Positions 46,801-49,800 of a DNA stretch of 64,000 nt are shown here, in pieces; position 1 is the stretch's first letter, and every line of letters begins with the position of its first letter. Made by a program: the position numbers. This DNA is from Escherichia coli (GTDB lineage Bacteria; Pseudomonadota; Gammaproteobacteria; Enterobacterales; Enterobacteriaceae). Location: assembly GCF_001677475.2 (NCBI RefSeq), contig NZ_CP015229.1; one strand, written 5' to 3'.

Positions 46801-49800
46801 AGACAGTGTCGTTATCAATTGCTCCGGTACCACTTTTAAATGGCACAGGAGTTTCCGGTAATACAGACGCGTTTGCGGCAAATGAAGCCATCATGATAGC
46901 AAGCGCCATTATTGTTTTATTCATTGTGACTGTCTCCTGTCTACTACAGTTTAAATGACACACCAATGCGATAACTGTTTTCCGATAAATTATCTCTGCC
47001 GTTGTAAACACCCTGGCGGTCAAGGTAGTCATATTCTATGTATGGCGTAATATCGGGCGTCATATGGTATTGTAGAACAAAGGCATTTTCCGTCGCCCAT
47101 TTCTTGTGGTTTGCATAGCGATAATCATTCTGTTTGCTGTATAGCGTCGTTTGCCATGCGAAGGTGAAATCACTATTAATATGGTAAGTGACATATCCAT
47201 CCCAACGATGAACGTTATCACGAGACATATCACCGGATAAGTCTTGTTGTCGGTAAGCTTTCCAGTCGTAACGATAGCGAATGCCAAAATTAAGATCTTT
47301 TGTCGCGTCCCAGGACAGTTTTACGTAGGGTCCGTAGCGTGTGCCGTTGCTGCTAAAATGCGTTAACATTCCCGGGCGCACCGTCCATTGATCATCAAGT
47401 TTAATCGCGTAATTAACTTCAACCTGAACATCATTGAGTGCGGCATTTTCCTTTTTATTATCATGAATGGTATTCCAGGTATTACTTTCCATGCTTGCCC
47501 ACCATCCATTTTGCCATCCCTCACTGACTTTGAGTCGAGTCTCATAGGCATGGCTTCCGCTACGATATCCACCACGTACGTCCAGTGTCGCAGCCTGAGA
47601 AATTAATGGTGACGAAAAGCACAGTAATAATACGCCAGAAAGTATTTTAGCCTTTTTCATAAATTTCACTCATTTGTAGGATACAGAAAGCAATACAAAG
47701 CCCGCATAAACAATTAGCATTTATGTTGTGTAATATTCTTTGCCAGGCTTATAGTGTCTTTGGCAACGGGTAGCTTATTTTATATTTTTTGTATAAGGTC
47801 TCCTGTGAAAATTCTCTTTCCACATTATTTAAATAAACAGAGAACCAGATTAAATACCTGAGTATAAAATCTCTTCTGATGTTTAATTGATTTGAATATT
47901 CGTAAGCTATGTCACTTACTCAATCCATTTTACCCAGAGTCATAAAATAGAGTGTCTGTTGATCTCATTTTCATATTCCTTTCAGACTGAAGTGCGTTTT
48001 CATCACCCGATGAGAAAGAACTGAAGTGATGTTTGCCATAGATTGCGAGATGCCCTGTCTCATTGACTATCTTGGTTCACCTTTATACCTGTTATACAAG
48101 ATCAAAAATCACGCAATCCATACAACAAAACCAGATTTGCAATTCGTGTCACAAAATATGTCGATATTTTTCTAAGAAGAAGATGCCATGTGAAGCCAAA
48201 CGAACACTTGCGGAGGCCTTCACAAACCAAAGATTGTTGTTTAATTATCTGTTTTATAAGTACTTTATATAAAGTGTAAACAAGGAAAGATTTGCAAGCT
48301 AACTCAGTGGGCGTGGTGAAAATAAGTGTTTACCCCCATCAGGCTGAGCATAATTCTCATCATGAAATATGTTTCATGGTTTGTGGCTTGTAACTGGTCG
48401 CTTCTGAAGTCGATCTGGAGAGGCTTGTTGATGTTGGTGTTTTCAGGATGATGTTTCACTTAGTTTGTTTGCCGTATCGCCCGGCGAATAGCTGTGATTG
48501 AGGAAGGTTTAAGTCGTAGTGACCAAAGCCATATTTACCCACGAATGTAGATGAAAAAATCATCTCCTGCGTTCCCCCATATCTCCAGGATAAAAAGGAA
48601 TGTAACAATCTCATGGCGTAAGCTGACGAACTAGGCAGGAATAATCGCTAGGGACCTAAGCATTAGCATGATAATAGCCACTAAGAAATTACTGCGTTCC
48701 ATGAAATAGCCATTTTGTGGCAAATGGAGTTGACTAATAATGTCATATGTGAGACGGCTAGTTGAACGAATATTAAATTTTGCTGAATTTTTTATGTTGA
48801 TTTTACTTGTTACAGAACATATCACATGATATATAGATAAGATTAGTTGCATTAATGATGAGGGTTATTATTAGATTCGTATCCGATTGATAAATATATA
48901 AAGTTACATAGCATGCAAGAGCATGGCGTTTGTATGGCAACGTTATTATAATTAACTGTTGCTACTCTATTTAAGTTCACTCAGAAGAACTGGTCCACTT
49001 ACGTTAGTTATTAAGCAAACGTTCGCTTTTATAAACATAATCAGGATTAAAATGTTGGATTATTGCTAACCCAGCACAGCTAGTGCGCGTCTGTAATTAT
49101 AAGGGAAAACGATGAAGAATAAGGCTGATAACAAAAAAAGGAACTTCCTGACCCATAGTGAAATCGAATCACTCCTTAAAGCAGCAAATACTGGGCCTCA
49201 TGCAGCACGTAATTATTGTCTGACTTTGCTTTGTTTTATTCATGGTTTCCGGGCGAGTGAAATTTGTCGATTGAGGATTTCGGATATTGATCTTAAGGCA
49301 AAGTGTATATATATCCATCGATTAAAAAAAGGCTTTTCAACAACGCACCCGCTATTGAACAAAGAAGTTCAGGCTTTAAAAAACTGGTTGAGTATCCGTA
49401 CTTCTTATCCGCATGCTGAGAGCGAGTGGGTATTTTTATCACGTAAGGGGAATCCGCTTTCTCGGCAACAGTTTTACCATATTATCTCGACTTCCGGTGG
49501 TAATGCCGGGTTGTCACTGGAGATTCATCCGCACATGTTACGCCATTCGTGTGGTTTTGCTTTGGCGAATATGGGAATAGATACGCGACTTATCCAGGAT
49601 TATCTTGGGCATCGCAATATTCGTCATACTGTCTGGTATACCGCCAGCAATGCAGGGCGTTTTTACGGCATCTGGGATAGAGCCAGAGGACGACAGCGTC
49701 ACGCTGTTTTATAGAGATAGTTGAGATACCAGGGATGGTGTTAAAAACTACATTATTCTTACGATATATCAAAAATGATTAACCATTTATTAATTGATGT

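What the first reader, a model, noticed from the sequence alone, without database searches (positions are those of the whole stretch)
47661..49111. Large AT-rich regulatory intergenic region between nanC and fimB
About 1.45 kb without a convincing ORF separates divergent nanC and fimB. In K-12 this region is known to carry distal regulatory sites that couple sialic acid and GlcNAc sensing to fimB expression. It also abuts the variable leuX island, so its upstream boundary may differ between strains.
Basis: established knowledge. Interest (0 to 1): 0.3.

Follow-up and report, generated by a model that had tools for sequence, protein, structure and literature searches.

The report
Known nanC–fimB regulatory intergenic region
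This is the well-studied 1.45-kb control region between the E. coli sialic-acid porin gene nanC and the fimbrial switch gene fimB, so it is ordinary, except that this strain's lineage carries a rare mutation in the NanR (sialic-acid repressor) binding site.

Summary
nanC (46944-47660, minus strand) and fimB (49112-49714, plus strand) are divergent and separated by 1451 bp of 36% G+C DNA. Its longest ORF (73 codons) is what chance gives. The interval is colinear end to end with the K-12 nanC-fimB region (96.4% identity) and occurs in 5086 of 5426 complete E. coli genomes, never with an annotated gene. The published landmarks map by sequence and distance: the NanR operator, two candidate NagC operators, both SlyA operators, the H-NS sites, the fimB promoter and start site (48842), and the 270-nt leader with OLE, MicA target and Shine-Dalgarno. 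The IHF site cannot be confirmed by motif.

The variable leuX segment ends at the nanS stop codon (about 44770), 2.9 kb away, so the nanC-side boundary is stable.

Extras:
- The first NanR GGTATA repeat is TGTATA, seen in none of 4726 complete genomes.
- The Dam site beside NagC operator 1 is GATA, as in about 20% of genomes.
- NagC operator spacing is 211 bp, against 212 in the twelve other sequences checked.
- The loop between the NagC operators is hypervariable but fixed in length.
- That loop contains a conserved SlyA-like box.

The region is already known. Interest is low.

The parts
46944..47660 (-). nanC coding sequence (238 aa KdgM-family sialic-acid porin), left flank of the interval
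   Evidence: ORF. Annotated nanC in homologous K-12 and other loci. PF06178 KdgM.
47661..49111 (.). nanC-fimB intergenic regulatory region (1451 bp, 36% G+C, no gene)
47661..48075 (-). nanC-proximal 415 bp, well conserved (pi 0.03). Presumed nanC leader or proximal control DNA; its function was not resolved here.
   Evidence: Diversity. About 85-90% conserved in the divergent strain E69. The role is inference only.
48076..48098 (-). NanR operator O_NR. On the minus strand it reads TGTATA-ACA-GGTATA-AA-GGTGAA (K-12: GGTATA-ACA-GGTATA-AA-GGTGCA). It begins 766 bp and ends 744 bp upstream of the fimB start site.
   Evidence: Sequence. The position matches 'around 760 bp upstream' in PMC3173223. 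GGTATA repeats are described in PMC3658417 and PMC8012715. SELEX shows NanR binding in the nanC/fimB spacer (PMC5934670).
48100..48103 (.). Dam site GATC adjacent to O_NR (retained)
   Evidence: A GATC within 5 bp of NanR sites is reported in PMC5155068.
48104..48137 (-). Invariant stretch between O_NR and O_NC1. Inferred to hold the nanC core promoter and possibly a CRP half-site.
   Evidence: It lies in a 93-bp block (48080-48172) that is nearly identical in E69 while the flanks diverge. About 83% similar to the K-12 nanX (yjhB) upstream region. The promoter assignment is inference.
48138..48160 (.). Candidate NagC operator O_NC1 (TGCAATTCGTGTCACAAAATATG, TT-N9-AA core, centre 48149)
   Evidence: pi = 0 in 10 strains and one change in E69. 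It matches O_NC2 at 15 of 23 positions and the nagB operator at 12 of 23. It lies within the published -760 to -470 range (PMC3173223). The exact edges are my assignment.
48163..48166 (.). GATA where K-12 has the Dam site GATC next to O_NC1
   Evidence: The exact 52-mer containing GATA is found in 1025 of 5017 genomes. E69 also has GATA.
48211..48310 (.). Hypervariable loop segment between the two NagC operators (pi 0.12; 34% of columns segregate)
   Evidence: Only 1746 genomes match 48170-48345 by megablast, against about 5040 for neighbouring segments.
48257..48269 (-). Best IHF-consensus match (TATAAAGTACTTA, 1 mismatch), close to the midpoint of O_NC1 and O_NC2
   Evidence: This is not above chance (2 matches observed, 3.6 expected). 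The midway position rests on my recollection of Sohanpal et al. 2007, which could not be read here.
48291..48302 (+). Conserved box TTTGCAAGCTAA, matching 11 of 12 positions of the SlyA consensus TTAGCAAGCTAA. Function untested.
   Evidence: It is the only match with one mismatch or fewer in the 64-kb window. It is identical in the 10 aligned E. coli and in L015; E69 has TTTACAAGCTAA and one metagenome-assembled copy lacks the exact box. The consensus is from PMC3173223.
48349..48371 (.). Candidate NagC operator O_NC2 (CATAATTCTCATCATGAAATATG, centre 48360), ending 471 bp upstream of the start site
   Evidence: This matches the position of about -470 given in PMC3173223.
48551..48649 (.). Second hypervariable segment (pi 0.09), with a 13-bp insertion in some strains
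48639..48648 (-). H-NS3 site (GCGATTATTC on the bottom strand)
   Evidence: The sequence given in PMC3173223 was located.
48648..48659 (+). SlyA operator O_SA2 (CTAGGGACCTAA), -194 to -183
   Evidence: PMC3173223; sequence.
48663..48674 (+). SlyA operator O_SA1 (TTAGCATGATAA), -179 to -168. It overlaps H-NS2 (ATGATAATAG, 48668-48677).
   Evidence: PMC3173223.
48807..48835 (+). fimB sigma-70 promoter: -35 TTGTTA (48807-48812) and TG-extended -10 TATATA (48830-48835)
   Evidence: The -10 position follows from the delta-1 deletion end at -277 (PMC3911127). The hexamers are read. The segment is invariant in 10 strains. The scan tool missed it because of its thresholds.
48842..49111 (+). fimB 5' untranslated leader (270 nt; 271 in K-12), start site at 48842
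   Evidence: Both SlyA operator coordinates give +1 = 48842 (PMC3173223). The 271-nt leader is stated in PMC3911127. The 1-nt difference is visible.
48924..48935 (+). ops-like element OLE (TGGCGTTTGTAT), 8 bp after the SphI site (48911-48916)
   Evidence: PMC3911127.
49067..49104 (+). MicA target in the fimB mRNA (K-12 -46 to -9, shifted by the 1-nt deletion), followed by the Shine-Dalgarno AAGGGA at 49101-49106
   Evidence: PMC3911127.
49112..49714 (+). fimB coding sequence (200 aa recombinase), right flank

Best explanation
The interval is the orthologue of the E. coli K-12 nanC-fimB intergenic region. It is a long, AT-rich, gene-free piece of DNA that controls two divergent transcription units.

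A distal module lies about 470-770 bp upstream of the fimB start site. It consists of the NanR operator, NagC operator 1, an IHF-bent loop and NagC operator 2. NanR binds it when sialic acid is absent, and NagC binds it when GlcNAc-6-P is absent. Bound there, they raise transcription from the fimB promoter. The same module overlaps the nanC promoter region, so it also represses nanCMS. When sialic acid or GlcNAc appears, fimB expression falls and nanCMS is induced.

Closer to fimB, SlyA competes with H-NS at -194 to -168. The 270-nt leader carries the OLE element and the MicA target.

Shown here: orthology, the positions of the sites and their conservation pattern. Taken from published K-12 work: binding and regulatory outcome.

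In this strain's lineage the module carries three small changes: NanR repeat 1 is TGTATA, the Dam site next to NagC operator 1 is lost, and the loop is 1 bp shorter. By inference these may weaken or retune the sialic-acid response.
For: The interval is colinear with K-12 over its full length at 96.4% identity. It is found in 5086 of 5426 complete genomes with no gene annotated inside it.

Every landmark taken from the readable papers is present at the stated distance:
- O_SA2 and O_SA1 both place +1 at 48842 (PMC3173223).
- The leader is 270 nt here against 271 nt in K-12. The SphI site, OLE 8 bp after it, the MicA target and the Shine-Dalgarno are all in place (PMC3911127).
- O_NR is at about -760 and O_NC2 ends at about -470, as stated in PMC3173223.

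The conservation pattern fits function:
- O_NC1 has pi 0, O_NC2 has pi 0.009 and the core promoter has pi 0, against 0.028 for nanC third codon positions.
- A 93-bp block covering O_NR to O_NC1 is nearly identical in the divergent strain E69 (79% identity overall).
- The loop between the NagC operators is about 4 times more diverse than synonymous sites. Its length is nevertheless fixed at 212 bp in nine E. coli genomes, a metagenome-assembled copy and E69. That is the pattern expected if spacing matters for a NagC-NagC loop.
- The two candidate NagC sites match each other at 15 of 23 positions and share the TT-N9-AA core with the nagB and nagE operators.

Genomic SELEX places NanR in this spacer (PMC5934670).
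Against: No binding or expression was measured.

The primary papers that define O_NR, O_NC1, O_NC2 and IHF could not be read (El-Labany 2003; Sohanpal 2004 and 2007; Condemine 2005). The exact operator edges, the 212-bp figure and the midway position of IHF therefore rest partly on my memory.

IHF consensus matches are not above chance. TT-N9-AA cores are common in AT-rich DNA: 12 occur in the interval.

The nanC promoter and start site were not located.

In this lineage only one perfect GGTATA repeat remains. Published in vitro work found poor NanR binding to a single repeat (PMC8012715), so the sialic-acid arm may not work as it does in K-12.
Confidence: 0.9

Rival explanations
1. The interval hides a real protein-coding gene. 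The candidate is the minus-strand ORF that starts at the ATG at 48852 and runs back through the fimB promoter.
For: In other E. coli this ORF is 88-135 codons. In some database entries it reaches 195-199 codons. An ORF of 131 codons or more occurs in 1.4% of shuffles, and none of 2000 shuffles exceeded 179 codons. A net 12-nt length difference (13-nt insertion offset by a 1-nt deletion 30 nt away) in two strains keeps the frame.
Against: In the window the ORF is 73 codons, exactly the chance expectation. Its length varies across strains (73, 88, 105, 131, 135, 166, 195 and 199 codons) through stop codons and frameshifts. It has no Pfam family. No credible homologue exists outside this locus among 5.8 and 1.8 billion proteins; the few remote hits are repeat-driven or low-identity matches that I judge to be chance. 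Variable sites show no clear third-position bias: 8, 4 and 4 across the three codon positions. PGAP calls it in none of the genomes whose annotation was inspected and only sporadically as 'hypothetical protein' in NCBI records, and it is absent from the curated K-12 record. It was called mostly on short metagenome contigs.
Confidence: 0.04
2. The interval encodes a structured non-coding RNA or a cis-regulatory RNA element, other than the plain mRNA leaders.
For: Both flanking genes appear to have long leaders: 270 nt for fimB, and possibly about 400 nt for nanC if its promoter lies at the O_NR/O_NC1 block. The nanC-proximal 415 bp is well conserved.
Against: No Rfam family matches even at E<=5. 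Nothing is annotated there in the curated K-12 record. Conservation is explained at least in part by the known protein-binding sites. No structure test was done on the nanC-proximal part.
Confidence: 0.05
3. Most of the 1.45 kb is functionless AT-rich spacer, possibly a decayed remnant of older DNA next to the leuX hot spot. In this view only the proximal fimB promoter matters in this strain, because the distal module has been disabled by the NanR-operator mutation.
For: NanR repeat 1 is mutated, leaving one perfect repeat. NanR binds one repeat poorly (PMC8012715). Two segments are more diverse than synonymous sites.
Against: The operator block is nearly invariant across E. coli and in E69. 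The loop length is conserved despite sequence turnover. The NagC operators, the SlyA sites and the promoter are intact. TGTATA still matches 5 of 6 positions, and the degenerate third repeat remains. The sister lineage L015 has the canonical repeat, so the change is recent.
Confidence: 0.08

Closest known systems
E. coli K-12 nanC-fimB intergenic region (O_NR, O_NC1, IHF, O_NC2; SlyA and H-NS sites; fimB promoter and 271-nt leader)
   Same: The flanking genes and orientation are the same. The region is colinear at 96.4% identity. All sequence landmarks quoted in the readable literature sit at the same distances (PMC3173223, PMC3911127).
   Different: It is 1451 bp here against 1455 bp in K-12. 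NanR repeat 1 is TGTATA and the third pseudo-repeat is GGTGAA rather than GGTGCA. The interval has 3 GATC sites against 6, including loss of the one beside O_NC1. O_NC1-O_NC2 spacing is 211 bp against 212. The loop segment 48211-48310 carries a different haplotype (about 20% divergent). The leader is one A shorter before the start codon.
NanR operator module upstream of nanXY (yjhBC) in K-12
   Same: A 77-bp stretch (window 48079-48155) is 83% similar. It covers the GGTATA repeats, the adjacent GATC and the following 50 bp, in the same orientation relative to the downstream gene and at a similar distance (about 420-430 bp) from the start codon.
   Different: nanXY has three perfect GGTATA repeats. 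Similarity ends at the edges of the module. nanXY is absent from the stretch between leuX and nanS in this window, where K-12 carries it within its 40-kb segment.
nagE-nagB divergent promoter region (two NagC operators forming a loop)
   Same: It has two 23-bp operators with a TT-N9-AA core and AT-rich arms, flanking divergent genes that respond to GlcNAc (PMC5401889).
   Different: The nag operators are 95 bp apart and overlap the promoters they repress. Here the operators are 211-212 bp apart, lie more than 470 bp from the fimB promoter, and activate it.

Membership tests
E. coli nanC-fimB intergenic regulatory region | Lies between divergently transcribed nanC and fimB | tested here: met
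   ORFs and annotation of homologous loci.
E. coli nanC-fimB intergenic regulatory region | Sequence orthology with the K-12 region over its whole length | tested here: met
   96.4% identity and colinear. 5020 genomes have at least 80% of it in one piece.
E. coli nanC-fimB intergenic regulatory region | No protein-coding gene or known RNA gene inside | tested here: met
   The longest ORF equals the chance expectation. No Pfam match, no Rfam match and no annotation.
E. coli nanC-fimB intergenic regulatory region | NanR operator about 760 bp upstream of the fimB start site | tested here: met
   The orthologous operator is at 48076-48098, that is -766 to -744 (PMC3173223).
NanR operators (GGTATA-repeat type) | At least two perfect GGTATA repeats spaced 2-3 nt apart | tested here: not met
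   The window has TGTATA-ACA-GGTATA-AA-GGTGAA, so only one perfect repeat. 4718 of 4726 complete genomes differ from the window 53-mer by a single base, and no genome matches it exactly; the ten aligned strains with the canonical sequence show GGTATA-ACA-GGTATA. The need for two or more repeats is from PMC8012715.
E. coli nanC-fimB intergenic regulatory region | Two NagC operators about 212 bp apart between -760 and -470 | tested here: met
   Candidates lie at 48138-48160 and 48349-48371, with centres 211 bp apart. They are conserved and alike at 15 of 23 positions. Their exact identity relies on published ranges plus my recollection.
E. coli nanC-fimB intergenic regulatory region | IHF site between the NagC operators | tested here: inconclusive
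   There is one 1-mismatch consensus match at 48257-48269, near the midpoint, but matches are not above chance.
E. coli nanC-fimB intergenic regulatory region | Dam GATC sites beside O_NR and O_NC1 | tested here: not met
   The GATC beside O_NR is kept (48100-48103). The one beside O_NC1 is GATA (48163-48166). GATA is a common allele, in 1025 of 5017 genomes.
E. coli nanC-fimB intergenic regulatory region | SlyA operators O_SA2 and O_SA1 at -194 to -168, overlapping H-NS sites | tested here: met
   Exact sequences are at 48648-48659 and 48663-48674. H-NS2 and H-NS3 sequences are present (PMC3173223).
E. coli nanC-fimB intergenic regulatory region | fimB sigma-70 promoter, leader of about 271 nt with OLE and MicA target | tested here: met
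   The start site is 48842 and the leader is 270 nt. OLE is at 48924-48935, 8 bp after SphI. The MicA target and Shine-Dalgarno are in place (PMC3911127).
E. coli nanC-fimB intergenic regulatory region | NanR, NagC, IHF and SlyA actually bind and regulate fimB and nanC in this strain | not testable with these tools
   This needs footprinting, ChIP or reporter assays.

The most novel reading that the evidence does not exclude
This lineage is a natural regulatory variant. The G-to-T change in the first GGTATA repeat of the NanR operator is absent from all 4726 complete E. coli genomes that have the site. It is present in at least three independent draft assemblies and absent in a sister lineage. 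It leaves a single perfect repeat, and it comes with a 1-bp shorter NagC loop. Together these would weaken NanR binding. The result would be partial derepression of nanCMS and reduced or uncoupled sialic-acid control of fimB, and hence of type 1 fimbrial phase switching. A second, independent possibility is that the conserved box TTTGCAAGCTAA inside the NagC loop is an undescribed SlyA or MarR-family operator.
Probability: 0.25. Interest if true: 0.35.

Novelty: already known. Interest (0 to 1): 0.15.

Why it matters
The region links host-derived inflammation signals (sialic acid, GlcNAc) to type 1 fimbrial phase variation, a colonisation and virulence trait. Confirming it here adds no new biology. 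It does show that the module is near-universal in E. coli. It also shows that natural variation concentrates in the loop sequence, not the loop length. One lineage carries a rare operator mutation that could be used as a natural test of how many GGTATA repeats NanR needs in vivo.

Tried and rejected
**Primary literature.** The papers that define the sites could not be read: Sohanpal 2004 (PMC526197), Condemine 2005 (PMC1064066) and Kalivoda 2013 (PMC3807447). Landmarks were taken instead from PMC3173223, PMC3911127, PMC8012715, PMC5934670, PMC3658417 and PMC5155068.

**Motif and family scans.**
- IHF consensus scan: 2 matches against 3.6 expected, so uninformative.
- The sigma-70 scan tool did not pick up the true fimB promoter, and its hits were below chance.
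- Rfam at E<=5 found nothing.

**Hidden gene.** I tested ORF integrity across strains, codon-position bias, Pfam, and two very large protein searches. No homologue was found outside the locus, so this was rejected. A weak hit to a repeat protein (P0097) reflects summed repeat matches, not homology.

**leuX island boundary.** I looked for a leuX direct repeat that would mark an island boundary in the window. There is none.

**Other species.** A genome-contig scan with the operator 18-mer mostly returned nanA-type operators in other Enterobacteriaceae. Only E. coli-like loci (E69 and one mislabelled metagenome-assembled genome) carried the nanC-fimB version.

**nanC promoter.** I tried to place the nanC -10 and -35 elements by eye in the conserved block and found no convincing hexamers. 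This is left unresolved.
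Full report
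**Observation**

The window has nanC on the minus strand at 46944-47660. The ORF listing extends it to a GTG at 47669, but the K-12 protein starts at the ATG at 47660. fimB is on the plus strand at 49112-49714. The genes are divergent, and the gap is exactly 47661-49111, 1451 bp.

Its G+C content is 0.36, against 0.49 for the window and 0.43 for each flanking gene.

The longest ORF inside is 73 codons (48631-48852, minus strand). In 2000 dinucleotide-preserving shuffles of a comparable 1463-bp copy of the region (locus L017), the longest ORF averaged 74 codons, and P(>=73) was 0.47. Pfam finds nothing in the four longest peptides. Rfam finds nothing even at E<=5.

**Identity**

The interval matches 5086 of 5426 complete E. 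coli genomes. 5020 of them have at least 80% of it in one piece. The listed matches have no annotated feature under them, apart from an IS1 insertion in one strain.

The curated MG1655 record has a 1455-bp gap between nanC and fimB with nothing annotated. Window and K-12 align colinearly end to end at 96.4% identity.

The best complete genome reaches only 97.8% identity. However, three NCBI draft assemblies carry an identical interval: L013, L014 and L016, the last identical over 11.8 kb. A sister lineage, L015, differs at four positions. The sequence is therefore a real lineage, not an assembly error.

**Mapping the published landmarks**

PMC3173223 gives O_SA2 (CTAGGGACCTAA) at -194 to -183 and O_SA1 (TTAGCATGATAA) at -179 to -168. 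In the window they lie at 48648-48659 and 48663-48674. Both place the fimB start site at 48842.

That gives a 270-nt leader. K-12 has 271 nt (PMC3911127) and one extra A before the ATG.

- The -10 is TATATA at 48830-48835, with a TG two bases upstream. It ends where the delta-1 deletion of PMC3911127 begins (-277).
- A TTGTTA -35 sits 17 bp upstream, at 48807-48812.
- The SphI site is at 48911-48916.
- The ops-like element TGGCGTTTGTAT lies 8 bp after it, at 48924-48935.
- The MicA target is at 49067-49104.
- The Shine-Dalgarno AAGGGA is at 49101-49106.
- The H-NS2 and H-NS3 sequences of PMC3173223 are at 48668-48677 and 48639-48648.

**The distal module**

PMC3173223 states that O_NR, O_NC1 and O_NC2 lie between about 760 and 470 bp upstream of the promoter, which corresponds to about 48082-48372.

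At 48076-48098 the minus strand reads TGTATA-ACA-GGTATA-AA-GGTGAA, followed by GATC at 48100-48103. K-12 reads GGTATA-ACA-GGTATA-AA-GGTGCA. This is the GGTATA-repeat NanR operator (PMC3658417, PMC8012715). Genomic SELEX places NanR in this spacer (PMC5934670).

Two 23-mers carry the TT-N9-AA core typical of NagC sites. They are 48138-48160 (TGCAATTCGTGTCACAAAATATG) and 48349-48371 (CATAATTCTCATCATGAAATATG).

- They have the highest dyad symmetry among the 12 such cores in the interval.
- They match each other at 15 of 23 positions.
- Each matches the nagB operator at 12 of 23 positions.
- The second ends at -471, as published for O_NC2.

My assignment of their exact edges, the 212-bp spacing and the midway position of IHF rests partly on my memory of Sohanpal et al. 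2004 and 2007, which could not be opened.

The IHF consensus gives one 1-mismatch hit near the midpoint (48257-48269), but such hits are not above chance.

**Conservation supports function**

I aligned ten E. coli genomes chosen across the identity range.

| Segment | Nucleotide diversity (pi) |
|---|---|
| O_NC1 | 0 |
| O_NC2 | 0.009 |
| fimB core promoter | 0 |
| nanC third codon positions | 0.028 |
| 48211-48310 | 0.12 |
| 48551-48649 | 0.09 |

A divergent genome, E. coli E69, is 79% identical over 47528-48559. It was found by scanning species-representative genomes with the operator 18-mer. E69 keeps a 93-bp block (48080-48172) almost unchanged, and it keeps O_NC2, while the flanks and the loop diverge heavily.

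The centre-to-centre distance of the two NagC sites is 212 bp in K-12, eight other E. coli, one metagenome-assembled copy and E69. It is 211 bp in the window lineage. One search prints values one higher because of an index offset in my script.

High sequence turnover with fixed length is what a spacing constraint on a protein-mediated loop predicts.

Only 1746 genomes match 48170-48345 by megablast, against about 5040 for the neighbouring segments. The loop therefore exists as several deep haplotypes.

**Lineage-specific changes**

1. NanR repeat 1 is TGTATA (A at 48098 on the plus strand). No complete genome has the 53-mer carrying it, and 4718 of 4726 differ from it by a single base; in the aligned strains that base is the canonical C at 48098. 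No genome is closer than two mismatches over 96 bp. L015 has the canonical base, so the change is recent. NanR binds one repeat poorly and needs two correctly spaced repeats (PMC8012715). A weaker operator is therefore a reasonable but untested inference.

2. The K-12 GATC beside O_NC1 is GATA here. That allele is common, in 1025 of 5017 genomes, and E69 also has it. Overall the interval has 3 GATC sites against 6 in K-12.

3. A 1-bp deletion (CCCGCC to CCCCC) shortens the loop.

**The island claim**

leuX is at 40256-40340. K-12 homology on that side stops at 40392. It resumes as continuous high identity at 44770, the nanS stop codon, and continues past 51154.

The strain-specific segment is thus 40393-44769, which is 4.4 kb against 40 kb in K-12. 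It carries a 678-aa hypothetical protein and a phosphorothioate-DNA-binding HNH endonuclease. There is no leuX direct repeat in the window.

nanS, nanM and nanC lie between this segment and the interval. The interval's nanC-side boundary therefore does not vary. Structural variation seen in the interval or around fimB comes from IS elements:

- IS1 inside the interval in strain UTAK-5.
- IS1 seven bases after the start site, with the fim genes deleted, in an O25:H4 strain.
- ISEc53 within fimB in strain IPCEC42.

**Side observations**

- A 77-bp stretch (48079-48155) is 83% similar to the region upstream of K-12 nanX, in the same orientation and at a similar distance from the start codon. This suggests a shared promoter-operator module. 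I could not place the nanC -10 and -35 elements.
- The box TTTGCAAGCTAA (48291-48302) matches 11 of 12 positions of the SlyA consensus. It is the only hit with one mismatch or fewer in the 64-kb window. It is identical in all ten E. coli despite its hypervariable surroundings. E69 has one further change.
- The minus-strand ORF from 48852 is longer in other strains, up to 199 codons, which is unlikely by chance. It is truncated at varying points, has no homologue outside this locus, and shows no clear coding signature.

**Verdict**

The finding is correct, and it describes a region that is already well characterised in K-12.

The lineage-specific NanR-operator change, the fixed-length hypervariable loop and the SlyA-like box are minor leads rather than discoveries.

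Noticed in passing
window 48631-48852 (minus strand); homologous ORF in L007-L011, P0001-P0017: An antisense ORF starts 10 nt inside the fimB leader and runs back through the fimB promoter. It is 73 codons here, but 88-135 codons in other E. coli and up to 199 in some database entries, which is longer than any of 2000 shuffles. It has no homologue outside this locus and is truncated at varying points in different lineages.
   Followed up: yes
window 48211-48310 and 48551-48649: Two segments are 3-4 times more diverse than nanC synonymous sites. The first is the loop between the NagC operators. Its length is fixed while its sequence exists as several deep haplotypes. The second has a 13-bp insertion in some strains.
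   Followed up: partly
window 48291-48302: The box TTTGCAAGCTAA matches 11 of 12 positions of the SlyA consensus. It is the only match with one mismatch or fewer in the 64-kb window, and it is conserved in ten E. coli amid variable flanks. It is not mentioned in the SlyA paper that could be read.
   Followed up: partly
window 48079-48155 vs K-12 NC_000913.3 4503567-4503643: The NanR-operator and promoter block is paralogous (83% similar) to the region upstream of nanX (yjhB). It has the same orientation and lies a similar ~420-430 bp from the start codon.
   Followed up: partly
window 40393-44769: A compact 4.4-kb strain-specific segment lies between leuX and nanS, where K-12 has 40 kb. It holds a 678-aa hypothetical protein, a phosphorothioate-DNA-binding HNH endonuclease and small ORFs. 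There is no integrase and no leuX direct repeat. About 237 complete genomes share this layout.
   Followed up: partly
L013 12842-12981 (beyond ahr, corresponding to window left of about 39000): A 500-aa DUF87/HerA-like ATPase gene sits next to ahr in the assemblies identical to the window. It may be part of a defence or mobile module.
   Followed up: no
window 16289-16404 and 34048-34242: Rfam gathering-score hits: a magnesium riboswitch (126 bits) and Ysr276 (185 bits).
   Followed up: no
L012 (E. coli O25:H4 CU568-3) and L008 (IPCEC42): In CU568-3, IS1 is inserted 7 nt after the fimB start site and the fim genes are deleted through to gntP. In IPCEC42, an ISEc53 insertion interrupts fimB.
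   Followed up: no
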